Positions 9,491 through 46,800 of a stretch of DNA of 64,000 nt are shown piece by piece. The stretch spans positions 63,950 to 127,949 of the forward strand of contig JALHMH010000010.1 of NCBI GenBank assembly GCA_022844165.1. Direction: 5' to 3'. The stretch's first letter is position 1, and every line of letters begins with the position of its first letter. The notes beneath the pieces were generated by a model. It did no database searches, was not told the DNA's origin, and saw nothing but the letters and a program-made list of their open reading frames with translations. The position numbers were made by a program, and so were the translations under genes. Origin of the DNA: Lysobacterales bacterium (GTDB lineage: Bacteria > Pseudomonadota > Gammaproteobacteria > Xanthomonadales > SZUA-5).

Positions 9491-9527
9491 GGGCAAATCC
9501 CGTCGCGAACAGTGACGCCAAGTCATC

Positions 9528-11554: not shown

Positions 11555-11567
11555 GGAGCGCCCACGC

Positions 11568-30641: not shown

Positions 30642-30642
30642 G

Positions 30643-32757: not shown

Positions 32758-32861
32758 GCTTGTGCGGTGGTTCAGCATATGATGGCGCTGGGAATGGCGA
32801 TCCCCGTAACGCCAAGTCGCACGAATGATCCTTTAGCCAGCCGATGAATTCCGGACTTTCT

Positions 32862-33683
32862 ATGGCAGGCGAAGTTGCGCGCATCGATTTTGTGATTCCG
32901 TTTCGAGCGCGCACGACAACGACGAATTGGAGGCGAGCTTGCCAGCTGCTCACCGATACGCTGCGTTCCGTCGAGAACTCGTCGGACGCTCGATGGCGTG
33001 CGATCGTCGTCTGCCATGACGAGCCAATCGGCATCCCTTCGGACCGGCAAGTTCTTGTCGTTCGCGCGCCATTCGAACCTCCAGGGCCGGATTCGCAGAA
33101 TCTTGCAACGAAGCGGCGGCTCTTTGTCTGGGAGACGGATAAGGGGCGTAAGCAGTTGGCGGGCGTTGATTTGGTACGTCGTTCTGGGTCAAAGTACTTT
33201 ATGCTGCTGGATGCCGATGACCTTATTTCCTCGCGGCTGGTCGAATGGTGTCTGGCGCGCGATCATCCTGCGGGTTACTTCATCGACGAGGGCTATCGAT
33301 TGGATGACACGAATCGCGATCGCCTCTACTTTCGTCGCCGGTTTTTCCAAGAGTGCGGAAGCAGCTCAATACTGCGAACAACGGTGGCGCCGTTCCCGGC
33401 GAAGCTTGACTACACGCTGGATCTCAATGACAAGTTCACCCGCCGCTACGTCGTTCACGCCTACATTCCGGAAGCCATGGCGGCGTTGGGGCAGCCGATG
33501 GAACGAGTGCCTTTTCCCGCGGCCGTGTATCGATTTCACGATCAGAACATCTTCGCCAACTCAGCCCGAAAAAAAGAATCCTGGCTCAGGCGCCAATTTC
33601 GGAATCTGCTCCGTGGCAGGCTACTTGACTGCCGGCTTCGATCTGAGTTCAGCATCCCCGATGCGCGTGGCCAGGGCGAATAA
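32862..33683 (+). CDS. GT-A fold glycosyltransferase-like protein
   Basis: FVIP start, DKGRK, LLDADD, CGSS; start could be 32844. Confidence 0.65.
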   Translation: MAGEVARIDFVIPFRARTTTTNWRRACQLLTDTLRSVENSSDARWRAIVVCHDEPIGIPSDRQVLVVRAPFEPPGPDSQNLATKRRLFVWETDKGRKQLAGVDLVRRSGSKYFMLLDADDLISSRLVEWCLARDHPAGYFIDEGYRLDDTNRDRLYFRRRFFQECGSSSILRTTVAPFPAKLDYTLDLNDKFTRRYVVHAYIPEAMAALGQPMERVPFPAAVYRFHDQNIFANSARKKESWLRRQFRNLLRGRLLDCRLRSEFSIPDARGQGE

Positions 33684-33709
33684 CGGTTTCTGGCTGATGG
33701 GGCGCTAAG

Positions 33710-35110
33710 ATGGCATTGTGGGGACTGTTGGGGTTGATTGTCGCCAGCGTGTTTGCCACATTCGCGAAATGGCGACTGGCGATACCTGGTGCCATCCTTG
33801 TCGTGGCCTTGCAAGATCCGGTCCGTAAGTTGACACCGGGCACACCCGGATGGATGACACTGCTGGTCGTTCCCTTGGTTGTCGCTGGCCTGATGGCAAT
33901 GTTCGCAACAGTGCCTGACGTCTGGCGCCGGTTCGCGCGCAATAATCCGAAGATCGCCCAAATGCTTGCGCTCCTCGTGTTGTTATCGATTCCATCGATC
34001 ATCATTTCCCTGACCTTCGGACCTGGGAGCTGGCAGTTCACTTTCTTAGGCGTGTTTTCCTACTCGATCATTTTTCTATCTGTACTACTTGGCTACTTTT
34101 ATGCGCGAGATATCGAAACAGCGCTCAACCTGTTGGCGACCTATTGCCTGATACATGGGGTCGTACTGATCGGTGCTTTGGTCGAATATTTGGATCTTTG
34201 GCCAGGCGCACAGATCATTGGTTCCCATGCACTAGGCTACGAGTGGATTCGTTGGATCCCCGGTTACACCGTGGAGATGATCTCTGGCTTTTACCGAAGC
34301 TCCGATGTCATGGGCTGGCACGCCGCCATGGTCTGTATGTTGTCGGTCACACTAGCCATAGCAAAGTCTGGCAAAGCCCGTTTTTTCTGGGTTCTCGTGA
34401 GTGCCTGGGCCGTACTTGCTCTGCTGCTTTGCGGCCGCCGTAAAATGGTTTACATGCTGCCGATCTTTATTCTCGTTCTGACCTGGATTTACTTCTCTGC
34501 AGGTCGAGCTTCGCGAGTATTGCCTATGATCGGCTTTTTGATCGTGCCGGCGGCATCGGTGTTGGTGACCAGCGATATGTTGGGCGAGAACACGGCGAAC
34601 ATCCGCTACTACACGTCGGCGAATGAGGGCGATAGCACCCTTGATCGCCTCCAGTCGCACGGGTTGGGCGAGATTCTTGAAACCTACCGGCAAATGGGCT
34701 TTTTCGGCGCAGGACTTGGTTTCGGTACGCCAGGCTCGCATCACATTAACGCCAATCGGCCCAGGGTGTGGCAAGAAAGCGGTCCCGGTCGCGTGATGGC
34801 GGAACTCGGAGTGCCGGGTTTCTTGTGCTTTCTCGCCACTTTGGCGGCCATCGGGGTTGTGATGTGGCGAGTGACCCGAACCTGGTTGATTGCTCGTACC
34901 CGTGAGGGCGTTCTTTGCGCATGCCTGATGTCGGTCGCCGTGGCCAATCTCGGTAGCCTGACGATTTCCGGCCAGATTCTGGCGGACGTGTTTGTCGTTG
35001 TGTTTCTCGGATTTCTGGTCGGCCTGGTGCTGAGTTTTGGTCGGCGCGATCTTGTGGAGCTGGTTTTGCAGCGAAACCAGGGGCGCTCTTTGCCAGCCTT
35101 CGCCGAATGA
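33710..35110 (+). CDS. Polytopic membrane protein, Wzy/WaaL-like polymerase or ligase
   Basis: Many hydrophobic segments, GRRK, loop with GAGLGFG and ELGVPG. Confidence 0.65.
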   Translation: MALWGLLGLIVASVFATFAKWRLAIPGAILVVALQDPVRKLTPGTPGWMTLLVVPLVVAGLMAMFATVPDVWRRFARNNPKIAQMLALLVLLSIPSIIISLTFGPGSWQFTFLGVFSYSIIFLSVLLGYFYARDIETALNLLATYCLIHGVVLIGALVEYLDLWPGAQIIGSHALGYEWIRWIPGYTVEMISGFYRSSDVMGWHAAMVCMLSVTLAIAKSGKARFFWVLVSAWAVLALLLCGRRKMVYMLPIFILVLTWIYFSAGRASRVLPMIGFLIVPAASVLVTSDMLGENTANIRYYTSANEGDSTLDRLQSHGLGEILETYRQMGFFGAGLGFGTPGSHHINANRPRVWQESGPGRVMAELGVPGFLCFLATLAAIGVVMWRVTRTWLIARTREGVLCACLMSVAVANLGSLTISGQILADVFVVVFLGFLVGLVLSFGRRDLVELVLQRNQGRSLPAFAE

Positions 35111-35655
35111 GCCTCGACATCGAAGGCAATCGCGGCGCCCGCCCATATCGGTCCCGAGAATACGTTGCACGTGTGCTCTGGGCCCTCGCTTATCCGTTGT
35201 TCCGCTGGTCCCCTCGGGTGCTGTTCGGCTGGCGAGCGTTTTTGCTGCGCAGATTCGGTGCGCGGGTTGGGCGGCAGGTTCACGTCTATCCGCGGGCTGC
35301 GATTGAGCTGCCTTGGATGTTGGACATCGGCGAATTCAGCAGCGTTGCCGACGGTGTGCGCATCTATAACCTCGGGCTGGTTCGTATCGGTGCGCGCAGC
35401 ACGATTTCCTTCGGCGCCCACGTCTGCGCTGGAACACACGACTACGAAAGTGCGGCCTTTCCGTTGCAAAGACTACCGATCGATATCGGTCACGATGTCT
35501 GGATTTGTGCCGACGCGTTCCTGGCGCCAGGCGTAACGATTGGCGATGGTGCCGTCGTCGCCGCACGCGCAGTGGTGGTCGATGTGGTCCCCGCGTGGAC
35601 CGTTGTGGCCGGACATCCGGCCCGAGTGGTCAAGCAGCGAGCCATCTTGCCTTGA
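35107..35655 (+). CDS. wcaF: WcaF-like polysaccharide acetyltransferase
   Basis: LLRRFGA, PWML, CAGTHDY, VWI, GHPA. Confidence 0.85.
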   Translation: MSLDIEGNRGARPYRSREYVARVLWALAYPLFRWSPRVLFGWRAFLLRRFGARVGRQVHVYPRAAIELPWMLDIGEFSSVADGVRIYNLGLVRIGARSTISFGAHVCAGTHDYESAAFPLQRLPIDIGHDVWICADAFLAPGVTIGDGAVVAARAVVVDVVPAWTVVAGHPARVVKQRAILP

Positions 35656-35710
35656 CGAACCACGGGCTCGTCTGCCGGGTGTTCGCCGTGCGCGACAATG
35701 CGAAGGCGTC

Positions 35711-36544
35711 TTGCCTGTGATATCGATTGTCGTGCTGACATTGAATGAGGCGGAAAATCTGCCGCGATGCCTGGCGAGTGTGTCGTTCTCTGACGATGTG
35801 CTTGTGCTCGACTCTGGTAGCAGCGATGCGACTGTCGAAATTGCTCGTAAGTTCGGCGCTCGAGTCGCCACGCGGAGCTTCGATTCTTTTGCCCAACAGC
35901 GCAACGCGGCCATGGCGATGGAGTTACGGCATCCTTGGGTGCTGCATCTGGATGCCGATGAGGTGGTCACACCGGCTTTGGCGCACGAGTTGATTGAAAT
36001 TGCGAGTGCGCAGGAGTCCAGCCCGGTTGCCTTTCGAGTCGCATCGCGACTGATGTTTCGCGGCGCGTGGCTGAAGCACGCCGGCATGTTTCCAGCGTAT
36101 CAGGTTCGTTTCGGGCGTCAAACTGTGTTGCGCTTCATCGATGTCGGTCACGGCCAGCGCGAAGCTGAAAACATCGGATCGATCGGCACCCTGAATTACC
36201 CTCTGGTGCACTACAATTTCTCGCGCGGGATCGGCGATTGGTTCGAGCGGCATCTGCGGTACGCGAAGCTCGAAGCGCAGCGCGCTGCATTGCGGGAAAC
36301 GCCAAGTCTGGCGGGGTTGTTGGGGCCGGATCCGGTGGCGCGGCGGCGTTCGCTGAAACGACTCGCTGATCGACTGCCGGCGAGGCCGCTGTTGCGCTTT
36401 CTTTACTGCTATCTGCTTCGGCGCGGATTTCTCGATGGTCGCGCCGGGTTCCACTACGCATGCATGATGGCCATCTACCAGTATTTCATCGACCAACATG
36501 TCATCGAGCAAGCGCTCAAAAAGGACGCAAATGACAGTATCTAA
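35711..36544 (+). CDS. GT2 glycosyltransferase
   Basis: LTLNE, DSGSSD, QRN, HLDADE, GFLDG; start 35711 or 35717. Confidence 0.9.
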
Positions 36545-37652
36545 AAAGGTGGCGCTGTTGACCGGCGTCACCGGCCAGGACGGCGCGTACTTATCGGAGT
36601 TGCTGCTGAGCAAGGGTTACATCGTGCACGGCATCAAGCGTCGTGCCTCATTGTTCAACACCCATCGTATCGATCACATCTATCAAGATCCGCACACCGA
36701 TGATCGCAACTTCATCTTGCATTACGGCGATCTGACCGATTCGACCAATTTGATTCGCATCATCCAATTGGTGCAACCGGACGAGATCTACAACCTTGGT
36801 GCGCAGAGCCATGTGGCGGTATCGTTTGAGAGCCCGGAATACACGGCCAACTGCGATGCGCTCGGCACGTTGCGGCTTCTGGAGGCCATTCGCATTCTGG
36901 GGCTGGAGGGAAAGACGCGAATCTACCAGGCATCCACATCGGAAATGTTCGGCAAAGTGGCAGAGGTGCCGCAACGCGAGACAACGCCGTTTTATCCGCG
37001 CTCGCCCTATGGCGCTGCCAAGGTCTACGCGTACTGGATTACGGTCAATTATCGCGAGTCGTATGGCTTGTATGCCTGCAACGGCATCCTCTTCAACCAT
37101 GAGTCGCCATGGCGCGGCGAGACGTTCGTGACGCGCAAGATCACGCGCGCATTGGCCCGTATCAGTCTTGGGTTGCAAGACCGGCTGTACTTGGGAAATC
37201 TCGAGGCCCTGCGCGACTGGGGGCACGCGCGCGACTACGTCCAGGCAATGTGGCTCATGCTGCAGCAGCCGCAGGCCGAGGACTACGTAATCGCAACAGG
37301 CGAGCAGCATTCTGTGCGCGAGTTCGTCGAATTGGCGTGCCGGGAACTCGGCATCGTGATTGAGTGGCAGGGGAGTGGCGACCAGGAGATCGGCGTGGTG
37401 GCGCAATCGACCGAGCGGTCACGCGTACGGCAGGGGCAGGCGATTGTCGCCGTAGACCCTCGTTACCGCCGGCCCGCGGAGGTCGACACCTTGCTCGGCG
37501 ACGCGAGCAAAGCGCGGCGGCAACTCGGCTGGCAGCCGCAAACGAGTTTCGAATCGTTGGTGGCAGAAATGATCCGGGAAGACGTTCGTTCCGCCGAGCG
37601 TGACGAAGTCGTCCGCAAGGCCGGATATCGCGCCTTCGATCATCACGAGTAG
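36531..37652 (+). CDS. gmd: GDP-mannose 4,6-dehydratase
   Basis: [36 protein letters not shown]. Confidence 0.97.
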
Positions 37653-37657
37653 CCGCA

Positions 37658-38596
37658 ATGGATGGTCGCTTTCGAAAAGTATTCGTCGCCGGACACAAAG
37701 GTCTCGTCGGCAGTGCGATCGTGCGTCGCCTTGAGCGCGATGGCATCGAGCCTTTGGTTGTAGATCGCCATGCGCTCGATCTTCGGGATCAGCGCGCAGT
37801 GGACCAGTGGTTTGCGAAGGCGCGGCCCGATGCGGTCATACTCGCGGCCGCGAAAGTCGGCGGCATCCACGCCAACAACACCCGTCCGGTTGAGTTTCTG
37901 CTCGATAACCTACGAATTCAAAACGCCGTGATTCCCGCCGCTCACGCGCATGGCGTGCGCAAACTGGTGTTTCTTGGATCGTCGTGCATTTATCCCAAGT
38001 TGGCGCCTCAGCCGATCCAGGAAAGTGCTCTGCTCACCGGCCCACTCGAGCCTACTAACGACGCATACGCGCTCGCCAAAATCGCCGGCATCCGCCTCTG
38101 CCAGGCGTATCGCCAGCAGCATGCATTCGAAGCCATCTCGTTGATGCCGACCAATTTGTACGGGCCCAACGACAATTTCCATCCCATCGACTCGCATGTC
38201 TTGCCGGGTCTGATTCGCCGGTTCCACGAAGCGCAGAACGCGGGCGCTGAGCGGATCGTGATCTGGGGCAGTGGCACGCCGCGTCGCGAGTTTCTGCATG
38301 TCGATGATCTGGCTGATGCCTGCATTTTCTTGCTGGCGAACTACGATTCGGGCGAGGTCATCAACGTCGGCGTTGGGAAGGACATTTCGATACTCGAGCT
38401 GGCCCAGTTGATCGCCAAGATCGTGGGCTTTCGGGGCACAATCGAGCACGATTTGAGCAAGCCAGACGGCACACCTCGCAAACTGCTGGACGTGGGCAAA
38501 TTGTCGGCGCTGGGATGGACCGCGCGAATCGGCCTGGAAGAAGGCATCGCCGAAACCTACCGCTGGTTTTGCGCACACGTAGGATCGGTGCGATGA
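37658..38596 (+). CDS. fcl: GDP-L-fucose synthase
   Basis: GHKGLVG, AAAKVGGI, GSSCIYP, MPTNLYG, KPDG. Confidence 0.96.
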   Translation: MDGRFRKVFVAGHKGLVGSAIVRRLERDGIEPLVVDRHALDLRDQRAVDQWFAKARPDAVILAAAKVGGIHANNTRPVEFLLDNLRIQNAVIPAAHAHGVRKLVFLGSSCIYPKLAPQPIQESALLTGPLEPTNDAYALAKIAGIRLCQAYRQQHAFEAISLMPTNLYGPNDNFHPIDSHVLPGLIRRFHEAQNAGAERIVIWGSGTPRREFLHVDDLADACIFLLANYDSGEVINVGVGKDISILELAQLIAKIVGFRGTIEHDLSKPDGTPRKLLDVGKLSALGWTARIGLEEGIAETYRWFCAHVGSVR

Positions 38597-39567
38597 AGGT
38601 GCTGGTCGTCGGTGGCGCTGGTTACATCGGTGCGCATATGGTTCGCTGGCTGGTCGACCATGCGATTACGGTCGAGGTTCTGGACAACCTGAGCACCGGG
38701 CATCGAGCAGCGATCCCGGATGGCATTCATCTGCATCAGGTGGATTTGCGGGAGCGTCAGGCGACAGAGAGCGCATTGCAGGCGATTCGGCCCGATGTCG
38801 TTTTTCACTTCGCTGCGAAAGCTCTCGTCGGCGAGTCCGTCAGTCGACCGATTGAGTACTACGAAAACAACTTTGTCGGTACTTTGAACCTTCTGCTGGC
38901 CATGCGCGCAGCCGCTTGCCGCCGCATTGTATTTTCATCGACCTGCGCTGTTTACGGTATCCCGAAAACCGAGAACCTCGACGAGCAACATCCGCGCGAG
39001 CCCATTAACCCCTATGGCGCGAGTAAGTTAGCTTGTGAGGATCTGCTGAGGGATTGCGCTGCGGCCGGCGACGTGTCGGCGGTCGCTCTGCGTTACTTCA
39101 ACGCCGCTGGCGCGCATCCCAGCGGTACGATTGGCGAGGCGCACGAGCCGGAAACGCACCTGATACCCAACGCAATCCGTGCCGCATTGGGTCAGCTACC
39201 AACGTTGGCGATCCATGGCACGGACTATCCAACGCCCGACGGCACTTGCATTCGCGACTACATCCACGTTGAAGATCTGGCTTCGGCACATGCGCTTGCC
39301 ATGCGCTGGCTTGAGAAAAACGAAGGCTGGCAGGCCATCAACCTGGGTACAGAACTTGGCAGCAGTGTTTTCCAGGTGCTTGCGCTGGTCGAAGAACTCA
39401 GTGGCAAAGTGGTGCCTTGTCAGAGGACGGTTCGCCGGCCAGGTGATCCGCCGCGACTGGTCGCCAGTGCGGTGCTGGCGCGCAAGTGTTTAGGGTGGCG
39501 CCCACGCCACGATTTGCGATCGATCCTCGAGTCCGCGTGGCGTTGGCACCGGTCGCCTCGATATTGA
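38593..39567 (+). CDS. galE: Second UDP-glucose 4-epimerase
   Basis: GGAGYIG, PINPYGASK, ETHLIP, DGTCIRDYIHV. Confidence 0.93.
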   Translation: MKVLVVGGAGYIGAHMVRWLVDHAITVEVLDNLSTGHRAAIPDGIHLHQVDLRERQATESALQAIRPDVVFHFAAKALVGESVSRPIEYYENNFVGTLNLLLAMRAAACRRIVFSSTCAVYGIPKTENLDEQHPREPINPYGASKLACEDLLRDCAAAGDVSAVALRYFNAAGAHPSGTIGEAHEPETHLIPNAIRAALGQLPTLAIHGTDYPTPDGTCIRDYIHVEDLASAHALAMRWLEKNEGWQAINLGTELGSSVFQVLALVEELSGKVVPCQRTVRRPGDPPRLVASAVLARKCLGWRPRHDLRSILESAWRWHRSPRY

Positions 39568-39711
39568 GTCGCTTAAGAGAACAGTTTCTTGTTTCGTTCA
39601 AATCCGGAACCGAAACATCTGGGCCCATGCGACAAGCTTTTTCGAATCAACCTGTGTATCCACTGAGATTGTTGCAATGTGCGCATTTTTGGAATACGGC
39701 CGATATTTCGC

Positions 39712-39741
39712 TTGAATCTACCGGTTATTGACCCCCAGAAT
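39712..39741 (+). promoter_or_regulatory. Possible sigma70 promoter for wecA
   Basis: TTGAAT-18 bp-CAGAAT in an AT-rich intergenic region. Confidence 0.3.
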
Positions 39742-39782
39742 ACGCGGAGCCGACATCTTTTCGCGGGTCGTAAAGGGGATTC

Positions 39783-40853
39783 ATGTCGACGCTCTATCTA
39801 GTGTCGCTGGCGGGTGTGGTCTCGTTCATCACGACGGCGCTGTTAGTTCGCACCGCTCCAGTCATCGGCCTGTTGGATCATCCCATTGCCGATCGAAAAT
39901 CCCATGACGCGCCGACGCCAGTGGTGGGCGGGCTAGGGATTTTAGCTGGCCTGATTGTATTCCCGGCATTCGCCGGTGTGCTGGACAACGCGCAGTGGTT
40001 TTGGCTGCTCAGCGCTGCCGTGCTATTGGCGGCCATTGGTGTGGCAGATGATCGCTATGACCTCCGATGGTATTGGCGCATAGCGGCCCAGGTGTTGGCC
40101 GCGTTGCTCATCGCGATTCCAGGGCAGACATCGATTCAAAGCTTGGGCGCGAGTACCTATTTGTCGCTTGAATTAGGTAGTTGGGCGTTGCCGTTCACAA
40201 TATTCGCGGTGGTCGGCGTGATCAACGCGACGAACATGATTGATGGCATGGATGGCTTGGCTGGGACCATGGCTTTGGTCTCGCTGCTTGCGATGGCGCT
40301 GATCGCATCCGAACCTCAGCTGAGCCAGTTTTTGTGGGCGACCGTGGCGATGCTTCTTGCGTTCCTGGCCTTCAATCTCAGGCGACCGGGATTGCCCAGG
40401 GCTGCATGCTTTTTGGGCAATAGCGGTAGTGCCATCGTTGGTTTGGTTCTGGCCTGGTCGGCAATTCGGTTGACGGCAAGCGGAGACCCCAGCCCGTCCA
40501 TCGCGCCCTGGCTTGTTGCGCTGCCAATCCTCGATTGTCTGATTCAGATCGCACGCCGGCTGCTGAACCGTCGTTCGCCTTTTTCGGCGGATTCTGGTCA
40601 TTTACACCATTTGTTGACCAATCACGGATGGAGCGTGGGCGCGACGGTGGCTGTTCTGGTCGGGATGCACGTGGCGTTCGTGTGCGTTGGTATTGGGTTC
40701 GCCTACGCTGGCTCAGACGCGTTGTATCCGATTTCTGGGTTCATTTCGCTATTGCCGTTGTTGGGACTTGGGTACTGGGCGCTGAATCGACATCCGATGG
40801 CTGATGATGCAATCAACCTGACGTTGGCCTCGGACCTCACGAGCCGCCGATAG
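39783..40853 (+). CDS. wecA: MraY/WecA-family polyprenyl-phosphate sugar-1-phosphate transferase
   Basis: RKSH..PTP.VGG, DDRYD, NMIDGMDG, FLGNSG, D..HLHH. Confidence 0.9.
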   Translation: MSTLYLVSLAGVVSFITTALLVRTAPVIGLLDHPIADRKSHDAPTPVVGGLGILAGLIVFPAFAGVLDNAQWFWLLSAAVLLAAIGVADDRYDLRWYWRIAAQVLAALLIAIPGQTSIQSLGASTYLSLELGSWALPFTIFAVVGVINATNMIDGMDGLAGTMALVSLLAMALIASEPQLSQFLWATVAMLLAFLAFNLRRPGLPRAACFLGNSGSAIVGLVLAWSAIRLTASGDPSPSIAPWLVALPILDCLIQIARRLLNRRSPFSADSGHLHHLLTNHGWSVGATVAVLVGMHVAFVCVGIGFAYAGSDALYPISGFISLLPLLGLGYWALNRHPMADDAINLTLASDLTSRR

Positions 40854-40940
40854 CGAGTTTAATTTGTAACAACACGCAACAGTTGGCGTTATTCAGCGTT
40901 CAATTCAGTGGAGCGCTAACGTCGGAATTTCGGCATGTTG

Positions 40941-40969
40941 TTGACCCTTGCTGTGCGCAAGGCTAACCT
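40941..40969 (+). promoter_or_regulatory. Probable sigma70 promoter for the C25 gene
   Basis: TTGACC-17 bp-TAACCT; RBS GAGGGG before ATG 41001. Confidence 0.5.
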
Positions 40970-41000
40970 TGGCTTAGGTTTGTATGAGGGGATTCGGATC

Positions 41001-44000
41001 ATGGTTCGTTTGATCGCAGGATTGTTAGGTGCGACGGCTTGTGTGTTGTCTTCGTCGGCCGGCGCCCAGATCACAATTCAAGATGGCGCCGCACGGGTCC
41101 GGTATGGCGATCTGTCGGATGCGGCTTACCTGACTGCTGGCGTGCCGCAAACGGTGCTGAGCAAGGGTTTGATTCCGCATCTTGCCGGCAGTCAGTTTTC
41201 GTATCGGGTAGCGGGTGATACACGCGAGTTTTCGGTGGTCACGGACTCGCCAGATCAGCCAACGATTACCCCTCCTGGTCCGACCAACACGGCGTTGATT
41301 GAGTACGCGAGTACTGAGTCTGCGCTTCGAAATCTGTTCAACGTCGACATCCAGGACACCGTTGTCGAATCCGGCGCAACGATCACTTACACGCGGGTGG
41401 CAACATTCGAGAACGTCTCCGGGGTCTCGCAAACGCTCACGGTGATGGGCTACGCCGACGACGTGCTGAACTCCGGATTCAACAATGTCAGTGCGACGTT
41501 GCTGGTCCCCAGCAATTCTATCCAGCTGACCAAGGCCAGCTCTACGCTCAATTTCACCGGTGTTGGTGCAACCGCATTTGAGGTCACGGCGTTCCCCGAT
41601 CTGATCGATAGTCTGGAGGATGCTGGGATCACCAGTTTCCTCGACGGTGGATTGCCGTTTTTGCCAACCACCGCGCCGCCAACAAACCCCGGCGACTGGA
41701 CCGGCGGTTTCGAGTGGCCCGCCCAGGTCGTAGCGATTGGCGGCACGGCTTCTTACACGATGATTTTTCAGCTAACGGCTGCACCCTTCGGTCCAGGCAG
41801 CGATGGCAGCCACATCGTCAATACCGCAGGAACCATCGTCAATGCGTATGCACCGCTGGATTCCGATCTCACCGCAGGCACGGATCGGCTGTTTGTTCCC
41901 GATGTCAGCGCGTTGACGCTGCCGGTGGCAGCGTGCACAGGCTGCGAGCGCACGCTGTCGAATGGCGATCTGCTGATGATCTATCAGCCACAGGGCGCGT
42001 CTATCGATACGACGAACACGCTCAATTACGGCAATGTCACAGACTTGGGTGGTGCTGGCCGCTACGAGTTTGTTTACGTCGCCAACGTGATCGATTTCGC
42101 GGTCGGGCCAGATGAAATCGAGTTTTTCCCGTTCGATGGCACCTCTTCACCTGGGCCTGGAAATGGGTTCTCGAATCCTGTTTGCACTGGTCTGCGCTAC
42201 GACTACACGACGACGGCCAATGCGCCCGCGATGGTCGTGCGCGTGCCGCAGTATTCGTTCTTGCGCGTCGAGCCGGGCGCAAGTGTTGTCGCACAAGATT
42301 GGAACTGGGACGGTTCGAGCGCTGCCAGTTTGGGCGGTGTATTGGCGGTGGATGTCGGCGGTCAAACGCAGTCCACCGGCATTATTGAGCTGGGCGGTGC
42401 GATGAGCGCCGACGGTGCGGGATTCCGCGGTGGCAATGATCAGACCACAGGTGCGACGTCATTCACGGCCGACTTTGTGAGCGGCAGCAATGCGCACGGC
42501 GAAAAAGGCGAGAGCGTTGTTGGAACCTTTGCGGCCTACGATGCGTTAGGTGGGCGTTTTGCGCGTGGCGCTCCGGCCAACGGTGGTGGCGGCGCAAACG
42601 GAGTCAACTCGTCGGGTGGGGGCGGTGCGAATGCCGGCGACCCGGCAGCCTGGACCAATGGTCATGGCGTCCTGGATCCGGCTTTTGCTCTGAATGCGTG
42701 GTTGTTAGACCCGGAAACCCGCGTTGGCCCAGGGCCTTTCACGGTTGCACCGGATAATAGTGGTGGCGGCCGCGGCGGTTACACCTGGTCGAATGCGAAT
42801 CAGGATGCTTTGGTCGTCCCGCCTGGCGATCCATCGTGGGTGGGCGACAATCGCCGAGTGGTCGGCGGTCTCGGCGGGCGGCCGTTGAGTGGCGTCGTGG
42901 CAGGCGATGCGTATCGGCGGGTGTACTTTGGCGGCGGTGGTGGCGCAGGCGAGGTGAACAATTTGAATCCGCGCCGAGGCGGTGATGGCGGTGGCTTCGT
43001 CTTTGTGCTTGCGCGCCGAATCGAGGCCTTTGGCCCAGTCAACCCCCGCATCAGTGCGAACGGAGCGAACGGACAAGGATCGACGGCGGCGCCTTTGGAC
43101 GGCAATGGTGGCGGTGGCGGTGGTGGTTCGGTGGTTGTGACCACCTCCGAGAATCATCCGTTGCCGGCGACGCTGGAGATTCAAGCCAATGGCGGCGCAG
43201 GCGGTTCCCATGGCGTTGTGAACCCCAATGGTGAGGGCGAGGGCGGTGGCGGTGGCGGTGGCGCAGGCGTGGTTTTGGTATCGCATTCGAGTGCGATCGA
43301 ATCGGTGGCGGGCGGCTTGCGCGGCGTGACGCTTTCAACATCACTCACAGAGTTCCCGGCAAACGGTGGTACGAGTGGAGCCGCGGGTGAGGAAGGCGCG
43401 GCACCCGATCGCGACGGCCCGGCGTCGCCGTTGGTCTGCCTGACTGGCCCCGATTTTACAACCCCTGTGACAAACGCTTATTTCGAAGCGGAGCGATTGG
43501 ACCGCAGCAAGATGCGAGTGCGTTTTGATTCTGCGTCGGAAGTGGCACACGCGGGCTTTTTCGTACTAGGCAGCCGCCGCGAACGATTGAGCGGGTTCAT
43601 TGCTGCGAGCGGCAGAAGCGGCGCCGAAGCCAAAGCCTACGAAGTGGTGATCGACGATTTGGGTATCACGGAACTGTATCTGGCCGACATCGACGTACGT
43701 GGCAAGGAGACGATCCGCGGCCCCTTCGAAGTTGGCAAGCGTTTTGGTGCGGCGCCTACGGTGGTGCGCTACAACTGGAGCGAGGCACAGCAGCAACTGT
43801 CCAGCTATCGAGCTGCCACTCGCGGTATGGCCAGCGGAATCGCGAAAATCGGAGTGCGCGAGCGCGGCATGGTGCGCGTAACGCATGAACAACTCATCGC
43901 CGCTGGCATCGATCTGAGCGGCACGCCCGGCAGTCAGATCGCAGTCCGCACCGACACAGGGCCGGTACCGCGCCGTGTGCGAGGTGCAGCGCTGTTTGGC

Positions 44001-45938
44001 GTTGGCTCGTCGATCGAGTTTTTTGGCGACGCTAAAGCAACCTTGTGGAGCCAAGATCGCTTTTACCTGATTGAGGCCGATGCCAGCAGCGCAGTCGAGA
44101 TGGGGTTGGTAACACGTGCAGTCAGTTCTGGCTCGACTTCGAACTACACCGCGGAACTGACCTACGCTCCGCAGAATGCTTACAACGAAGTATCGCCAAT
44201 CGGCGATCCCTGGTATGCGGATCGATTGGTTTCGCAGGGCGGTCTGGCCAGCAAGACAATCAGTTTAAGTGGCCCGGCATCCATTGGGAATGCCGAACTC
44301 GACGTACTTGTCTGGGGCGGTATCGACTGGCCAAGCCGTGGCGACGATCATTCGATTCGCGTGCGACTCAATGGTCAACTGGTTGCGTCCGAACGGTTCG
44401 ACGGTTTAGCCAGCAAACGTATTCGAGTGCCGGTGACGTTGAGCGGCACGAACCACCAGATCGTGATTGAGGCGCCGGGCGATACCGGCCAACCGGCAGA
44501 TATCATCCATATCGAATCTGCAACCTTGCGCTACACGGCCGCAGCGAGTGGTAACGGCAGTACGTTCTTCGGGCAGGCGCTGCAAGGTACGCGCAGTGAC
44601 ACGATTTTCCAGGATCGTACAGGTGACGGAATGGACGCTCCGATTGCGGGCGTGATCACCGTCAATAACGTCTCTGGTGCGGATTTGCGTGCGTACCGCA
44701 TTGTCGGCGGCAGTGCAACTGAGTATCAGGTGAGCGGCAGCCCAGTGGCCGTGTATGCCGAAGGGTTTTCGGATGCCGCAGAACTATGGGTTGGGCCAGC
44801 GGCACAATTGCGTGCTCCGCAATCCATCAGCGTTGCACCCGCTGCAACCAGTTTGTTCGGCGCATCTGCCGATTGGCTGGCGATCACGCATGGCATGTTC
44901 AGCAATGCGCTGAACGACCTGGCAAGCCGTCGTCAGAGCCAGGGACTCAGTACGAAGATTGTCAATGTTGAAGCGATTTACACACGCTACAGCGCGGGCA
45001 ACCCGAGTCCTGTGGCCATTCAGCGCTACATCAAAGACGCACGAGCTCAACTGGGTACGGATTACGTCGTGCTGGTCGGTGCCGACACGACGGATGCGCC
45101 CGGGTACGAAAACTCCGGATCGATCAGTTTTGTGCCCACGCCGTACGCCACGACCAGTATCTTTGTCCGCTACGCGCCTGCCGATCCGCTGATGGGCGAT
45201 ATCAACGGCGATGGCATGGCCGAAGTGGCGGTGGGACGACTGCCGGTACGCACACTCGCCGAGGTACAAGAAGCGGTTCGCAAGATATTGGCGTACGAAA
45301 ATCAACCAGCAGCAAACCAAATGACGTTGGCAGCAGGTCCTGAAGACACCAGCGCGGTTTACCAAAACACGTTCGCGGAATCGAGCGAAGCGCTGGCAGC
45401 TGGATTGCCAAACGCCTGGACCATCAGTCGGGTTTATCAAGACGTTCTGGGATTGAACCCCGCCCGTCAAGCGCTGGTCGACGCATTCAATGCGGGCCGT
45501 AGTGTTGTGTCTTACGTTGGTCACTCAGGCCCAAGTCAATGGACCTTTGATCCGATGTTCGATATCAGCCAGGTACAAGGCACCAGTAGCGATCCGAACC
45601 GGCCTAACCTGGCAAGCAGCGTAAACCAGCCGATCGTGCTGCAGTTCGCCTGCTGGACAACGTACTTCGTGTCGCCGACAGCCAATACCATGGCGCAGGC
45701 GCTCATGTTGACGCCAAACAGGGGCGCCAGTGCGATCGTAGGTGCAACCGTGCTGCTGGATCAGGCTTCGCACGACGCCATGATGGTGGCTGTATCTGAC
45801 CGTTTGGTAGCGGGCGCGCGAATTGGCGACGTGGTCAATGCTGCCAAAGCGGAATTGAAAGCCCGTCCAGGCGGCGCTGGACCCGAGATTCTATTGGGCC
45901 AGGTCATCCTGGGCGATCCAGCACAGCCGATTCGCTGA
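41001..45938 (+). CDS. Large secreted multidomain protein with glycine-rich region and C-terminal C25 (gingipain/PorU-like) cysteine peptidase
   Basis: Signal peptide; GGG-rich repeats; VVLVG.D, VGRLP, YVGHSG and QFACW (His/Cys dyad), ends ILGDPA. Confidence 0.85.
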   Translation: MVRLIAGLLGATACVLSSSAGAQITIQDGAARVRYGDLSDAAYLTAGVPQTVLSKGLIPHLAGSQFSYRVAGDTREFSVVTDSPDQPTITPPGPTNTALIEYASTESALRNLFNVDIQDTVVESGATITYTRVATFENVSGVSQTLTVMGYADDVLNSGFNNVSATLLVPSNSIQLTKASSTLNFTGVGATAFEVTAFPDLIDSLEDAGITSFLDGGLPFLPTTAPPTNPGDWTGGFEWPAQVVAIGGTASYTMIFQLTAAPFGPGSDGSHIVNTAGTIVNAYAPLDSDLTAGTDRLFVPDVSALTLPVAACTGCERTLSNGDLLMIYQPQGASIDTTNTLNYGNVTDLGGAGRYEFVYVANVIDFAVGPDEIEFFPFDGTSSPGPGNGFSNPVCTGLRYDYTTTANAPAMVVRVPQYSFLRVEPGASVVAQDWNWDGSSAASLGGVLAVDVGGQTQSTGIIELGGAMSADGAGFRGGNDQTTGATSFTADFVSGSNAHGEKGESVVGTFAAYDALGGRFARGAPANGGGGANGVNSSGGGGANAGDPAAWTNGHGVLDPAFALNAWLLDPETRVGPGPFTVAPDNSGGGRGGYTWSNANQDALVVPPGDPSWVGDNRRVVGGLGGRPLSGVVAGDAYRRVYFGGGGGAGEVNNLNPRRGGDGGGFVFVLARRIEAFGPVNPRISANGANGQGSTAAPLDGNGGGGGGGSVVVTTSENHPLPATLEIQANGGAGGSHGVVNPNGEGEGGGGGGGAGVVLVSHSSAIESVAGGLRGVTLSTSLTEFPANGGTSGAAGEEGAAPDRDGPASPLVCLTGPDFTTPVTNAYFEAERLDRSKMRVRFDSASEVAHAGFFVLGSRRERLSGFIAASGRSGAEAKAYEVVIDDLGITELYLADIDVRGKETIRGPFEVGKRFGAAPTVVRYNWSEAQQQLSSYRAATRGMASGIAKIGVRERGMVRVTHEQLIAAGIDLSGTPGSQIAVRTDTGPVPRRVRGAALFGVGSSIEFFGDAKATLWSQDRFYLIEADASSAVEMGLVTRAVSSGSTSNYTAELTYAPQNAYNEVSPIGDPWYADRLVSQGGLASKTISLSGPASIGNAELDVLVWGGIDWPSRGDDHSIRVRLNGQLVASERFDGLASKRIRVPVTLSGTNHQIVIEAPGDTGQPADIIHIESATLRYTAAASGNGSTFFGQALQGTRSDTIFQDRTGDGMDAPIAGVITVNNVSGADLRAYRIVGGSATEYQVSGSPVAVYAEGFSDAAELWVGPAAQLRAPQSISVAPAATSLFGASADWLAITHGMFSNALNDLASRRQSQGLSTKIVNVEAIYTRYSAGNPSPVAIQRYIKDARAQLGTDYVVLVGADTTDAPGYENSGSISFVPTPYATTSIFVRYAPADPLMGDINGDGMAEVAVGRLPVRTLAEVQEAVRKILAYENQPAANQMTLAAGPEDTSAVYQNTFAESSEALAAGLPNAWTISRVYQDVLGLNPARQALVDAFNAGRSVVSYVGHSGPSQWTFDPMFDISQVQGTSSDPNRPNLASSVNQPIVLQFACWTTYFVSPTANTMAQALMLTPNRGASAIVGATVLLDQASHDAMMVAVSDRLVAGARIGDVVNAAKAELKARPGGAGPEILLGQVILGDPAQPIR

Positions 45939-45962: not shown

Positions 45963-45995
45963 CCGACGCCCGGCATCGCCGGGCGTCGGCGTTTT
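45963..45995 (+). terminator. Intrinsic terminator
   Basis: CCGACGCCCGGC-ATC-GCCGGGCGTCGG followed by CGTTTT. Confidence 0.75.
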
Positions 45996-46032
45996 GGGGC
46001 ATAGTTCGGCCTTCGATGGCGCCGAATTTGCG

Positions 46033-46800
46033 ATGGGAACAATGCTCGACCGCTTGAAGCGAGCCTATGCGCGCAGAAACAACGCAGCTTTTTGGCGATG
46101 GAAGCTGGCGCAATGGACTGGTTCTCCGACCGCGGCTGTCTCGAATCCGTTGGCCGCTTACCCACTGATCGTGCGCACCCGAACGACGGACTGGTCTGTT
46201 TACCAGCAGATCTTCGAAGAGGTTGAGTATCAATGCCTACCTGGTGACTTGAGTCCAGTCGTGATCGTCGACCTTGGCGCCAATGTTGGGTACTCCTCTG
46301 CCTATTTCCTGACCAGGTACCCGGCCTGTTCCGTGATTGCCGTTGAGCCGGATGCGGACAATTTCGCCGCAATGGAACGGAACCTTCGCGCCTATGGTGC
46401 GCGGGTTCAAACGCTTCTGGCGGCGGCCTGGTCGTCGCCAGGGCGTCTGGCGTTGCGCACAGACGCATTCCGGGGTGGCGGCGCCTGGGCTCGACAAGTT
46501 CAGGCGGACAACGATGGAAAAATCGAAGCGATCGATATTGACGCGCTGATGCAGCGCTATCGGTTGCCGAAGATCTCAATACTGAAAATGGACATCGAAG
46601 GCGCCGAGGTTGAGGTCTTCAAAGGGTCGTTGGACTGGCTCGATCGCGTTGACGTGCTAGTGGCAGAACTGCACGACGACAGTAGCTTCGGACCCGCAAG
46701 TCCGACGGTCATCCCGGAGATGCACCGGCGTGGGTTTCGGTCCTGGACTCACGGCGAGTTGATCGTATTTCGTCGCCCCAAGGTCAGCGATAGCCGTTAG
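46033..46800 (+). CDS. FkbM family methyltransferase (orphan)
   Basis: VDLGANVG, AVEP, LKMDIEGAE; start 46033 or 46042. Confidence 0.88.
   Translation: MGTMLDRLKRAYARRNNAAFWRWKLAQWTGSPTAAVSNPLAAYPLIVRTRTTDWSVYQQIFEEVEYQCLPGDLSPVVIVDLGANVGYSSAYFLTRYPACSVIAVEPDADNFAAMERNLRAYGARVQTLLAAAWSSPGRLALRTDAFRGGGAWARQVQADNDGKIEAIDIDALMQRYRLPKISILKMDIEGAEVEVFKGSLDWLDRVDVLVAELHDDSSFGPASPTVIPEMHRRGFRSWTHGELIVFRRPKVSDSR

What the first reader, a model, noticed from the sequence alone, without database searches (positions are those of the whole stretch)
40941..45938. PorU-like C25 peptidase with adhesin-like passenger domains directly after wecA: candidate glycan-anchoring sortase outside T9SS phyla
Seen: signal peptide; a beta-rich domain; a GDLLMIYQPQGA...GRYEF domain; a Gly-rich block; a TPVTNAYFEA...SEVAHAGF Ig-like module resembling the LPVEL..F.A domain of T9SS cargo; a KIGVRERGMVRVT...IEFFG region resembling the PorU N-terminal region; and a C25 domain with candidate His (GHSG) and Cys (FACW). 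It ends at ILGDPA with no T9SS CTD or beta-barrel. Known: in Bacteroidota, PorU is a C25 transpeptidase linking proteins to A-LPS. Inference: this protein could cleave or attach itself or other proteins to the glycan made by the adjacent 40-kb locus.
Basis: partly seen in the sequence, partly recalled or inferred. Interest (0 to 1): 0.8.

Follow-up and report, generated by a model that had tools for sequence, protein, structure and literature searches.

The report
PorU-like protease linked to lasso peptides
The gene encodes a real, large secreted cysteine protease built like the PorU/gingipain enzymes of gum-disease bacteria; across many bacterial phyla its relatives travel with the genes for a small knotted "lasso" peptide rather than with sugar-polymer genes, so a glycan-anchoring role is not the best reading.

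Summary
Window 40935..45938 (+) is one open frame, and the likely start is ATG 41001. It encodes, in order:
- a signal peptide;
- a variable beta-rich domain;
- a Gly-rich AgmC-like solenoid;
- an Ig-like module and a PorU-N-like region;
- a C-terminal Peptidase_C25 domain (208 bits, cut-off 23).

His1530 and Cys1573 are invariant in 34 of 34 relatives. The protein ends with the catalytic domain, with no T9SS CTD. The 99.97%-complete genome shows no SprA or CTD, and both searches had a positive control.

It is not a PorU orthologue: it scores 118.6 bits against a cut-off of 420, while a true PorU scored 992. It belongs to a large separate CTD-less family in Lysobacterales, Acidobacteriota, Chloroflexota and others.

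wecA is adjacent in only 3 of 78 related loci plus the window, all inside one 13-member clade.

The conserved neighbour is a lasso-peptide gene cluster (cyclase, precursor, HprK-like kinase, PqqD, B2), present in 46 of 78 loci. Genome-level co-occurrence is strong: 69 with both, 16 and 7 with one, 157 with neither among 249 genomes, and 13 of 13 against 0 of 138 in a second phylum. The window's genome keeps that lasso cluster on another contig.

Best reading: a secreted C25 peptidase that works with the lasso peptide. Its place beside wecA is lineage-specific. How the two interact is unknown.

The parts
142..40853 (+). ABC-transporter-type (Wzt) polysaccharide/O-antigen locus. It holds about 14 glycosyltransferases, 4 FkbM methyltransferases, 2 AsnB-type amidotransferases, acyltransferases, a deacetylase, GDP-mannose dehydratase and epimerases. 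It ends with wecA.
   Evidence: Pfam scans
39783..40853 (+). wecA-type polyprenyl-phosphate GlcNAc-1-P transferase (GT4 family). It is the only copy found in the genome with this query.
   Evidence: PF00953, 122.9 bits; TIGR02380, 184.1 bits, below its cut-off of 326. tblastn against the own genome gives one hit.
41001..45938 (+). C25-family gene. The likely start is ATG 41001; the open frame runs from 40935. The stop codon is included.
   Evidence: P0002 aligns from residue 23.
41001..41066 (+). Sec signal peptide-like N-terminus (aa 23-44).
   Evidence: Read directly from the sequence. By a crude hydrophobicity rule, 49 of 62 family proteins have such an N-terminus.
41067..41789 (+). Variable beta-rich N-terminal domain (aa 45-285) of no known family.
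   Evidence: Shared only with the closest homologues. No Pfam hit. The protein atlas gives only unnamed clusters.
41790..43454 (+). AgmC_N-like Gly-rich domain (aa about 286-840), predicted as a solenoid or beta-helix-like fold.
   Evidence: NF047640, 116.6 bits, below its cut-off of 275. Shared at 38-46% identity with myxobacterial OmpA-family and Bacteroidota surface proteins. Model pLDDT 88.5. No PDB match at E<=0.001. Best VIA Z is 10.2 over 95 residues; beta-helix chains score about Z 8.
43455..43739 (+). Ig-like beta-sandwich module (aa 841-935).
   Evidence: Model strands 7-92. VIA Z about 8 to the Ig-like domains of GH2 enzymes.
43767..44864 (+). Beta-rich region like the PorU N-terminal region (aa about 945-1310). 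It includes the invariant Asp1138-His1139.
   Evidence: The family profile aligns to PorU chain residues 21-786 at E 1.9e-29. VIA aligns model 125-827 to PorU 37-788, Z 17.8.
44865..45935 (+). Peptidase C25 catalytic domain (aa about 1311-1667), which ends the protein.
   Evidence: PF01364, 208.2 bits. RgpB 4ief_B: Z 38.6, rmsd 2.4 A, 316 residues, 23% identity. Kgp: Z 34.9.
45522..45524 (+). Codon of the candidate catalytic His1530.
   Evidence: Invariant in 34 of 34. Aligned with the GH motif of PorU, RgpB and Kgp. Position.
45651..45653 (+). Codon of the candidate catalytic Cys1573.
   Evidence: Invariant in 34 of 34. Aligned with the Cys of PorU, RgpB and Kgp. Position.
45994..46800 (+). 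FkbM-family methyltransferase. It is the last glycan-type gene, so the C25 gene lies inside the glycan locus.
   Evidence: PF05050, 61.4 bits; TIGR01444, 95.4 bits. The same gene is downstream in L003.

Best explanation
The gene encodes a Sec-exported, multi-domain cysteine peptidase of clan CD, family C25. Its C-terminal 830 residues have the architecture of PorU (beta-sandwich domains followed by a gingipain-fold catalytic domain with a His/Cys dyad). It lacks the T9SS C-terminal domain, and the organism has no detectable T9SS.

It belongs to a large, uncharacterised family that is separate from PorU. The family's conserved genomic partner is a lasso-peptide biosynthetic cluster whose precursor is unusually well conserved: a YxxP leader, Thr at -2, a Gly1 to Asp/Glu8 ring, and an invariant Ser9.

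Most likely it acts outside the cytoplasm as a peptidase, with the N-terminal domains serving as binding modules. It most likely works together with that lasso peptide, which could be its substrate or its dedicated regulator or inhibitor.

In this genus the gene has been separated from the lasso cluster, which survives on another contig, and now lies at the end of an O-antigen-type locus next to wecA.

Shown: domain composition, fold, conserved dyad, no CTD and no SprA found, family distribution, and linkage and co-occurrence with lasso genes.

Inferred: catalytic activity, export through the type II system, any direct interaction with the lasso peptide, and the direction of the rearrangement.
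For: Fold and catalytic residues
- Peptidase_C25, 208 bits against a cut-off of 23.
- Model of aa 841-1667: pLDDT 90, pTM 0.90.
- Foldseek top hit is PorU 6za2 (E 4.9e-29 over 821 columns), followed by RgpB and Kgp.
- The catalytic domain superposes on RgpB at Z 38.6, rmsd 2.4 A, 316 residues.
- The family profile hits PorU at E 1.9e-29, and the His and Cys motifs align with PorU, RgpB and Kgp.
- His1530 and Cys1573 are invariant in 34 of 34.

Not PorU, and no T9SS
- NF033707 gives 118.6 bits against a cut-off of 420. A true PorU in control bin G001 scores 991.7.
- In the tree, 95 family rows are split from PorU and a PorU-like sequence with SH-aLRT 100.
- Own genome (99.97% complete): no SprA_N, PorV, GldL, GldM or CTD.
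- Positive controls in G001: SprA_N 154 bits and at least 150 CTD matches.

Secretion
- Signal-peptide-like N-termini in 49 of 62 family proteins, by a crude rule.
- Two GspD secretins above their cut-off in the genome.

Link to lasso genes
- 46 of 78 related loci carry a lasso element; 43 of 78 carry a precursor.
- Among loci with at least 4 kb on both flanks, 25 of 40 carry one.
- The precursor is on the same strand as the C25 gene in 45 of 46 cases.
- In L028, L060, L065 and L078 the C25 gene lies between the cyclase and the kinase.
- B2 is above its NCBIfam cut-off (86 against 33), and Pfam PqqD scores 59 against 23.4.
- Own order: 69 genomes with both, 16 with C25 only, 7 with precursor only, 157 with neither, of 249.
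- Second phylum: all 13 genomes with a strong family hit have a full-length precursor hit on the same contig within about 8 kb. None of the other 138 has one.
- The own genome has the same precursor family (63 bits) with a cyclase, an HprK-like gene and B2 on contig C19.
- The 56%-identical orthologue in G063 is flanked by a cyclase and a precursor.
Against: - No biochemical evidence exists for any member of the family.
- In the window itself the gene is not next to lasso genes. It is next to glycan genes, co-directional with wecA and FkbM with short gaps.
- 16 of 85 C25-positive genomes in the order showed no precursor, and several of these are 96-100% complete. The coupling is therefore not obligatory.
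- Related genomes are not independent, so the 2x2 counts overstate significance.
- No exporter for the lasso peptide is conserved in the clusters. How a cytoplasmic RiPP would meet a secreted protease is unexplained.
- The lasso cyclase matches are below NCBIfam's cut-off: 410 against 525 for a C25-linked one, and 92 for the own genome's copy.
- Dyad geometry could not be measured, because model coordinates are not returned.
Confidence: 0.62

Rival explanations
1. The protein is a T9SS-independent PorU-type sortase. It cleaves itself or other surface proteins and joins the new C-terminus to the glycan made by the adjacent wecA-primed locus.
For: - The PorU-like multi-domain architecture extends beyond the catalytic domain.
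- The gene lies between wecA and a last FkbM methyltransferase of a 40-kb glycan locus.
- A 46%-identical relative (L015) is embedded in a different glycan locus: GtrII, GtrA, gmd and wecA before the C25 gene, then DegT, GT2 and GT1 after it.
- wecA adjacency appears in three sub-branches of the 13-row clade, with different orientations.
- A constant C-terminal module behind variable passenger domains resembles a sorting module.
Against: - wecA is adjacent in only 3 of 78 related loci plus the window, and in none outside one clade.
- Outside that clade, glycan-type genes (Wzz-type) were seen within 6 kb in only 3 Chloroflexota loci, L026, L039 and L070.
- The wecA is the only copy found in the genome.
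- The paralogue on contig C11 is not in a glycan locus.
- None of the PorU partners or CTD-bearing substrates was found.
- The score is far below the PorU cut-off.
- O-antigen loci are variable regions where accessory genes often land. This point is general knowledge, not tested here.
Confidence: 0.1
2. The protein is a general secreted gingipain-like protease or adhesin used for nutrient acquisition or antagonism. It has no direct biochemical tie to the lasso peptide or to the glycan. The gene neighbourhoods would then reflect co-regulation or co-transfer of accessory 'island' genes.
For: - The catalytic domain is nearest in structure to the gingipains (Z 38.6 and 34.9).
- The N-terminal passenger domains vary (DUF11, SdrD-B-like, He_PIG, P_proprotein), as in secreted hydrolases.
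- Genomes carry 2-5 paralogues, often in tandem.
- The family is large: 1436 cluster representatives at E<=1e-30.
- In the own order, linkage to the lasso cluster is often broken.
Against: - Adjacency to the lasso cluster is on the same strand, with gaps of 0-300 nt. It recurs in Acidobacteriota, Chloroflexota, Gammaproteobacteria and Myxococcota-labelled genomes.
- The C25 gene can sit between the cyclase and the kinase.
- Co-occurrence persists where linkage is lost.
- The precursor core is unusually conserved across phyla. This suggests a conserved partner.
Confidence: 0.22

Closest known systems
PorU, the T9SS C-terminal signal peptidase/sortase of Porphyromonas gingivalis (PDB 6za2; NCBIfam NF033707)
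   Same: - It is the best sequence and Foldseek match.
- The family profile aligns to PorU residues 21-786 (E 1.9e-29). This covers the N-terminal beta domains and the C25 catalytic domain, with the His and Cys motifs aligned.
   Different: - The score is 118.6 bits against a cut-off of 420; a true PorU scores 992.
- The roughly 370 residues that follow the catalytic domain in PorU, including its CTD, are missing.
- A roughly 820-residue signal peptide, beta domain and AgmC-like solenoid are added in front.
- No SprA or CTD proteins were found in the genome.
- The family forms a separate clade.
Gingipains RgpB and Kgp (MEROPS C25; PDB 1cvr, 4ief, 4rbm)
   Same: - The catalytic-domain fold matches: Z 38.6 and 34.9, rmsd 2.4-2.6 A over 316 residues.
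- The His and Cys align.
- They are secreted.
   Different: - Identity is only 15-23%.
- No Propeptide_C25 was detected by Pfam at E<=0.01.
- There is no Ig-like, haemagglutinin or CTD region after the catalytic domain.
- By the profile alignment, the position of the RgpB S1 Asp is not an Asp here. The residue number is recalled and the alignment there is loop-like, so this is weak.
AgmC N-terminal domain (NCBIfam NF047640) of myxobacterial OmpA-family and Bacteroidota surface proteins
   Same: aa about 286-840 shares 38-46% identity over about 540 residues with such proteins. It has many invariant Gly motifs.
   Different: - The score is below the model's cut-off: 116.6 against 275.
- Those proteins carry OmpA, MYXO-CTERM or T9SS tails, not a C25 module.
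- No paper on AgmC was found in the library.
Kinase-containing lasso-peptide clusters (paeninodin and pseudomycoidin type)
   Same: - The associated clusters have a cyclase, split B1 (PqqD) and B2, an HprK-like gene and sometimes an NTP_transf_5 gene.
- The review PMC8498205 describes HPr-kinase homologues and a nucleotidyltransferase as lasso tailoring enzymes (passages read).
   Different: - Known kinases act on a C-terminal Ser. These precursors do not end in Ser but have an invariant Ser at core position 9.
- No ABC exporter is conserved.
- No described cluster with a C25 peptidase was found.

Membership tests
Peptidase family C25 (Pfam PF01364) | Profile match above the curated cut-off | tested here: met
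   208.2 bits against a cut-off of 23, aa 1315-1663
Peptidase family C25 (Pfam PF01364) | Catalytic His and Cys in the positions of RgpB, Kgp and PorU | tested here: met
   The profile alignment puts the GHSG His and the FACW Cys on the corresponding motifs. Both are invariant in 34 of 34. The residue numbers of RgpB His211 and Cys244 are recalled, and they agree with counting.
Peptidase family C25 (Pfam PF01364) | Gingipain/caspase-like catalytic fold | tested here: met
   RgpB: Z 38.6, rmsd 2.4 A, 316 residues. The model has pLDDT 90.
Peptidase family C25 (Pfam PF01364) | Formed dyad geometry and peptidase activity | not testable with these tools
   Model coordinates are not returned, and there is no assay.
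PorU, T9SS sortase (NF033707) | Score at or above the equivalog cut-off | tested here: not met
   118.6 bits against 420. A control PorU scored 991.7.
PorU, T9SS sortase (NF033707) | C-terminal T9SS CTD retained on the protein | tested here: not met
   The protein ends at the end of the catalytic domain, whereas PorU continues for about 370 residues. TIGR04183 gives 0 matches in G000 and at least 150 in control G001.
PorU, T9SS sortase (NF033707) | Host has the T9SS translocon SprA/Sov | tested here: not met
   No SprA_N match in the own genome. The positive control G001 scored 154 bits, and four other family-bearing genomes had none.
PorU, T9SS sortase (NF033707) | Host has PorV and PorK/L/M/N | tested here: inconclusive
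   No PorV, GldL or GldM match in the own genome, but these searches had no positive control. GldN matched nothing even in G001. GldK gave only sub-cut-off matches in both genomes.
PorU, T9SS sortase (NF033707) | N-terminal beta domains followed by the C25 domain, as in PorU | tested here: met
   Profile positions 686-1389 align to PorU 21-786. VIA aligns model 125-827 to chain 37-788.
PorU, T9SS sortase (NF033707) | Transpeptidation of cargo to a glycolipid | not testable with these tools
   Needs biochemistry.
Gingipains (RgpA/B, Kgp) | N-terminal C25 propeptide; Ig-like and adhesin domains and a CTD after the catalytic domain | tested here: not met
   PF01364 is the only Pfam family at E<=0.01. 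Nothing follows the catalytic domain.
AgmC N-terminal domain (NF047640) | Score at or above the cut-off | tested here: not met
   116.6 bits against 275. The domain is nonetheless clearly homologous to many such proteins.
Lasso-peptide biosynthetic cluster (the associated system, outside the window) | Precursor with a YxxP leader, Thr at -2, a small residue at core position 1 and Asp/Glu at core position 7-9 | tested here: met
   In the alignment of 30 precursors, Y, P, L, G, T(-2) and Ser9 are invariant, Gly1 is nearly so, and core position 8 is D/E. The leader rule is recalled; the conserved penultimate Thr is stated in the abstract of PMC10368454 (search listing).
Lasso-peptide biosynthetic cluster (the associated system, outside the window) | B2 protease and PqqD-type B1 | tested here: met
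   NF033537 scores 86.3 (linked locus) and 60 (own genome) against a cut-off of 33. Pfam PqqD scores 59 against 23.4.
Lasso-peptide biosynthetic cluster (the associated system, outside the window) | Asn-synthase-like cyclase at the curated score | tested here: inconclusive
   NF033535 scores 409.8 (L045) and 92 (own genome) against a cut-off of 525. Pfam Asn_synthase is above its cut-off.

The most novel reading that the evidence does not exclude
The C-terminal module is a PorU-type transpeptidase that works without a type IX secretion system. Outside the cell it would cleave and covalently join the co-inherited lasso peptide, or its own passenger domains, to an amine-bearing acceptor. In the wecA-linked lineages, including this window, that acceptor would be the wecA-primed glycan. 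This would be a new protein- or peptide-to-glycan attachment system that also explains both gene neighbourhoods.

A less extreme version is that the lasso peptide is the dedicated inhibitor or latency factor of the protease, in the way staphostatins serve staphopains (the analogy is recalled). I put roughly 0.3 on that version.
Probability: 0.07. Interest if true: 0.9.

Novelty: new variant of a known kind. Interest (0 to 1): 0.62.

Why it matters
C25 peptidases are known almost only through the gingipains and PorU of Bacteroidota.

This work defines a large CTD-less, PorU-like family in phyla without T9SS: 1436 cluster representatives at E<=1e-30. It also gives the family its first functional lead, a tight genomic coupling to one conserved lasso-peptide family. 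I found no paper that describes this coupling.

If the coupling is biochemical, it would be a new kind of accessory enzyme, or a new kind of target, for lasso peptides, whose natural roles are mostly unknown.

It also shows that PorU-like architecture alone is not evidence of T9SS-type sorting.

For the window itself, it replaces an attractive but weakly supported glycan-sortase idea with a testable alternative.

Tried and rejected
- Complex prediction, C25 module alignment A1 with precursor alignment A3: no verdict (score 0.00, controls not run). I draw nothing from it.
- The look-up of sequencing runs: no RNA holder listed. The only strong holder is one DNA run, labelled drinking-water metagenome.
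- GldN and GldK searches were uninformative, because the control bin also failed to reach their cut-offs.
- PorV, GldL and GldM gave no match in the own genome, but no positive control rang.
- The promoter and terminator scan of 39500-47000 found 0 promoter-like sites and 12 terminator-like sites against 8.8 expected. That is no usable signal for operon structure.
- A strict regular expression for the precursor found only 9 of 78 loci and none in the own genome. I replaced it with a profile HMM, which found 43 loci and the contig-C19 copy.
- AgmC-like domain: Foldseek against PDB gave nothing at E<=0.001. VIA wide gave Z of at most 10.2 on a 95-residue part, and about 8 for beta-helix proteins, which is within the noise range the tool states. 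The fold is therefore left as 'solenoid-like, unassigned'.
- The N-terminal domain (aa 45-285) gave only unnamed clusters in the protein atlas.
- Literature on AgmC: 235 hits were unrelated acronyms, and AgmC with Myxococcus and gliding gave 0 papers.
- A family member in a 'Bacteroidetes' MAG (L018) was rejected as evidence of coexistence with T9SS. Its contig has 73% G+C, against 36-43% for the T9SS loci of that bin. It is probably mis-binned.
- Greedy ORF calling mis-called some high-GC genes, for example wecA in L003 and the C25 gene in L013. Neighbour counts were therefore redone by tblastn.


Full report
THE OBSERVATION

Window 40935..45938 (+) is a single 1667-codon open frame. The probable start is ATG 41001 (Met23). 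It is preceded by GAGGGG, and the 80%-identical homologue P0002 begins there. Residues 23-44 look like a Sec signal peptide.

Pfam finds one family, Peptidase_C25, at aa 1315-1663 (E 3e-61, 208.2 bits against a cut-off of 23).

NCBIfam gives three matches, all below their cut-offs:
- PorU (NF033707): 118.6 bits against 420, aa 1036-1663.
- AgmC_N (NF047640): 116.6 against 275, aa 285-569.
- PorU2 (NF052324): 91.9 against 450.

The upstream gene is a wecA-type GT4. The downstream genes are an FkbM methyltransferase, prfB and lysS. Window 142-40853 is an ABC-transporter-type glycan locus with Wzt, about 14 glycosyltransferases, four FkbM methyltransferases, two AsnB amidotransferases, acyltransferases and gmd. 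The description is therefore correct. The C25 gene actually lies inside the locus, between wecA and a last methyltransferase.

STRUCTURE AND CATALYTIC RESIDUES

An AlphaFold model of aa 841-1667, built on 34 relatives, has pLDDT 90 and pTM 0.90.
- Foldseek ranks PorU (6za2) first, at E 4.9e-29 over 821 columns. RgpB and Kgp follow.
- VIA-align puts the catalytic domain (model 472-827) on RgpB at Z 38.6, rmsd 2.4 A, 316 residues and 23% identity. Kgp scores Z 34.9.
- VIA-align also aligns model 125-827 with PorU 37-788 at Z 17.8.
- A profile of the family hits PorU at E 1.9e-29 (profile 686-1389 against chain 21-786), RgpB at 3.7e-16 and Kgp at about 6e-12.
- In those alignments the family's GHSGP and QFxCW motifs lie on the His and Cys motifs of the three enzymes.
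- His1530 and Cys1573 are invariant in 34 of 34 sequences, as are Asp1138-His1139.

The protein stops where the catalytic domain stops. PorU goes on for about 370 residues, including its CTD. I could not measure the dyad geometry.

THE OTHER DOMAINS

aa 841-935 is a beta-sandwich.

aa about 286-840 is a Gly-rich domain. It shares 38-46% identity with the N-termini of myxobacterial OmpA-family proteins and of Bacteroidota surface proteins. Its model is confident (pLDDT 88.5), but it has no clear solved relative. I call it solenoid-like and leave the fold unassigned.

aa 45-285 is shared only with the closest homologues and matches no named family.

Across the family the part in front of the PorU-like module varies. 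It can be absent, or it can be DUF11, SdrD-B-like, He_PIG or P_proprotein. The C-terminal module is constant and always terminal.

NOT PorU, AND NO T9SS

The own genome (4.68 Mb, 99.97% complete) has two C25 genes. It has no match to PorV, SprA_N, GldM, GldL or the T9SS CTD.

Controls came from a bin, G001, that carries T9SS genes:
- SprA_N at 154 bits.
- A true PorU at 991.7 bits.
- At least 150 CTD matches, against 0 in G000.

PorV, GldL and GldM had no positive control. The GldN and GldK models failed even in G001, so those five are inconclusive.

Four other family-bearing genomes lack SprA_N: G002-G005, reached through loci whose records are labelled Acidobacteriota, Anaerolineales, Candidatus Contendobacter and Lysobacterales.

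In a quick maximum-likelihood tree (97 rows, LG+G4, SH-aLRT only), the 95 family rows are separated from PorU and a PorU-like protein by a branch with support 100. Rows shorter than 600 residues or lacking the C-terminus were left out, as was the duplicate L087.

The one family member in a 'Bacteroidetes' MAG sits on a 73% G+C contig, in a bin whose T9SS loci have 36-43% G+C. It is probably mis-binned.

DISTRIBUTION

- The word-indexed search gave 956 proteins at E<=0.001 among 8000 scored candidates. The named ones are only 'C25 family cysteine peptidase' or 'hypothetical'.
- The exhaustive search of 1.84 billion cluster representatives gave 9904 at E<=0.001, 5861 at E<=1e-10 and 1436 at E<=1e-30.
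- In GTDB species genomes, 306 stretches encode relatives. The best 80 (78 loci) come from MAGs labelled Lysobacterales, Thermoanaerobaculia/Acidobacteriota, Chloroflexota/Anaerolineae, Competibacteraceae, Multivoradales, Myxococcales and others.
- Within the window's own order, 85 of 249 genomes have it. By family: 22/24, 23/33, 14/15, 12/32, 6/32, 4/32, 2/8 and 1/1, and none in families sampled at 0/33, 0/32, 0/4 and 0/2.

THE SYNTENY TEST

I called ORFs in the 78 loci, clustered them and named the recurrent neighbours.

wecA is a neighbour only in L003 (the 82% orthologue), L012 and L015, besides the window. All four lie in one 13-row Lysobacterales clade.
- In L003 wecA is on the other strand and is 61% identical.
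- In L012 it is downstream, followed by purF, trxB and ftsK.
- In L015 the C25 gene is embedded in a different glycan locus.
- The genome's only wecA found with this query is the one in the window.
- The paralogue on contig C11 lies between an alkyl sulfatase and DoxX/CoaX genes.

The recurrent neighbour is instead a lasso-peptide cluster:
- an Asn-synthase-like cyclase (best NCBIfam match is the lasso cyclase, 410 bits against a cut-off of 525);
- an HprK-like gene;
- PqqD (Pfam, 59 bits against 23.4);
- a B2 protease (86 bits against 33);
- sometimes an NTP_transf_5 gene.

Between the cyclase and the kinase lies a small ORF with the hallmarks of a lasso precursor. A profile of it finds 46 copies in 43 of 78 loci.

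Counting any lasso gene, 46 of 78 loci are positive, and 25 of the 40 loci with at least 4 kb on both flanks. The precursor is on the C25 strand in 45 of 46 cases. In four loci the C25 gene sits between the cyclase and the kinase. Positive loci occur in every major clade of the tree.

CO-OCCURRENCE BEYOND ADJACENCY

In the own order (249 genomes):
- The C25 module (E<=1e-20) is in 85 genomes and the precursor (E<=1e-4) in 76.
- 69 have both, 16 have C25 only, 7 have the precursor only and 157 have neither.
- The family-by-family tallies nearly coincide. One example is 12/32 and 12/32 in one family, with the same twelve genomes.
- Five of the seven precursor-only hits are weak (E>1e-7).
- Four of the sixteen C25-only genomes are under 85% complete, but at least nine are 96-100% complete.

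These genomes are related, so the 2x2 table overstates independence.

A second sample is the class around an Acidobacteriota MAG (151 genomes).
- C25 scores there are bimodal. Thirteen genomes score E<=1e-94, and the next best is 3e-43.
- All 13 have a full-length precursor match on the same contig within about 8 kb.
- None of the other 138 has one. Six have matches to the leader only.
- This sample includes one unpublished genome (G357), which counts only among the 138.

THE WINDOW'S OWN GENOME

The window's genome follows the rule, although the genes are unlinked. Contig C19 carries a cyclase, a precursor of this family (63 bits), an HprK-like gene and B2, next to a TonB-dependent receptor.

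The next orthologue outward (G063, 56% identity) has the cyclase directly upstream and the precursor directly downstream of the C25 gene. L011 and L012 in the sister branch are also lasso-linked.

The simplest history is that lasso linkage is ancestral and that the placement beside wecA in this genus is a later rearrangement. The direction is inferred, not shown.

HOW IT PROBABLY WORKS

Shown: a secreted-type precursor, an intact gingipain-fold domain with the conserved dyad, PorU-like accessory domains, no CTD, and coupling to a lasso cluster.

Inferred:
- It is an active peptidase.
- It leaves the cell by the type II system. Two GspD secretins are above their cut-off.
- It interacts with the lasso peptide.

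The precursor's ring and the following Ser are conserved from Chloroflexota to Gammaproteobacteria. That argues for a conserved partner rather than a fast-evolving antibiotic target. The peptide could be a substrate, for trimming or ligation, or a dedicated inhibitor. I cannot tell which.

No exporter is conserved in the clusters, which is a gap in any model that needs the peptide outside the cell.

The complex prediction gave no verdict, and no RNA data were available.

LITERATURE

Full-text searches found nothing that links the two systems:
- 'lasso peptide' with 'C25': 32 papers, none relevant among the 10 listed.
- 'lasso peptide' with 'gingipain': 2 papers. In one the word occurs only in a reference (passages read). 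The other was seen only in the listing.
- 'PF01364': 3 papers (listing).

A lasso review describes HPr-kinase and nucleotidyltransferase tailoring at a C-terminal Ser (PMC8498205, passages read). PorU's role as signal peptidase and sortase within the PorQ/V/Z complex, and its retained CTD, are taken from PMC11285876 (passages read).

Supplementary co-occurrence tables of lasso-mining papers were not seen and might already list this Pfam family.

VERDICT

The gene is a member of a new, widespread PorU-like but T9SS-independent C25 family. Its most informative feature is its association with a conserved lasso peptide.

Noticed in passing
own genome contig C19, about 56.7-60.1 kb (locus L081 8745-12029, minus strand); outside the window: A lasso-peptide cluster: cyclase, a 37-residue conserved precursor end, an HprK-like gene and B2. 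A TonB-dependent receptor, an amine oxidase and DUF1838 lie directly upstream.
   Followed up: yes
loci L003-L080, for example L020 14526-14636 and L060 5166-5276: A lasso precursor family conserved across phyla. Y, P, L, G, Thr(-2) and Ser at core position 9 are invariant, and the ring runs from Gly1 to Asp/Glu8. The precursors do not end in Ser, although an HprK-like kinase is present. This suggests a different phosphorylation site, possibly Ser9.
   Followed up: partly
window 47021-47027 (+), inside prfB 46869-48047: CTTTGAC lies in the right register for the programmed +1 frameshift of release factor 2. GAC at 47025 is in frame with the long ORF.
   Followed up: partly
own genome contig C11, 11026-15078 (-) (locus L082): A second C25-family paralogue of 1350 aa (PF01364, 188.7 bits). 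It lies between an alkyl sulfatase and DoxX/CoaX genes, in a different clade of the family tree.
   Followed up: partly
L018 (contig of a MAG labelled Bacteroidetes) against L083-L086 of the same bin: The contig with the C25/lasso locus has 73% G+C, and the bin's T9SS loci have 36-43%. The bin is probably chimeric, and the contig resembles the Acidobacteriota loci L020 and L032.
   Followed up: yes
window 41790-43454 and proteins P0063-P0120: The Gly-rich AgmC_N-like domain is widespread at the N-termini of giant surface proteins that carry OmpA, MYXO-CTERM or T9SS tails. It is confidently modelled but has no clear solved relative. It looks like an uncharacterised fold family.
   Followed up: partly
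L005, L006, L009, L019, L024, L048: Two or three C25-family paralogues lie in tandem with different passenger domains (DUF11/DUF7933). In several Lysobacterales loci prfC is directly upstream, while the window has prfB downstream.
   Followed up: no
L025, L026, L039, L069, L070: In Chloroflexota the C25-lasso cluster is followed by Wzz/tyrosine-kinase-type, DUF4012 and LysM genes. This is a second, separate proximity to polysaccharide genes.
   Followed up: no
window 5465-7315 and 14093-16075 (+): Two full-length AsnB-type amidotransferases lie inside the glycan locus (TIGR01536, 434 and 427 bits). They are distinct from the lasso cyclase, which lacks the GATase part.
   Followed up: partly
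window 50051-54531 (-), 56925-59327 (-): An RND efflux pair (AcrB-type plus HlyD-type) and a cytochrome cd1 (NirS-like) gene lie downstream. They are unrelated to the finding.
   Followed up: no
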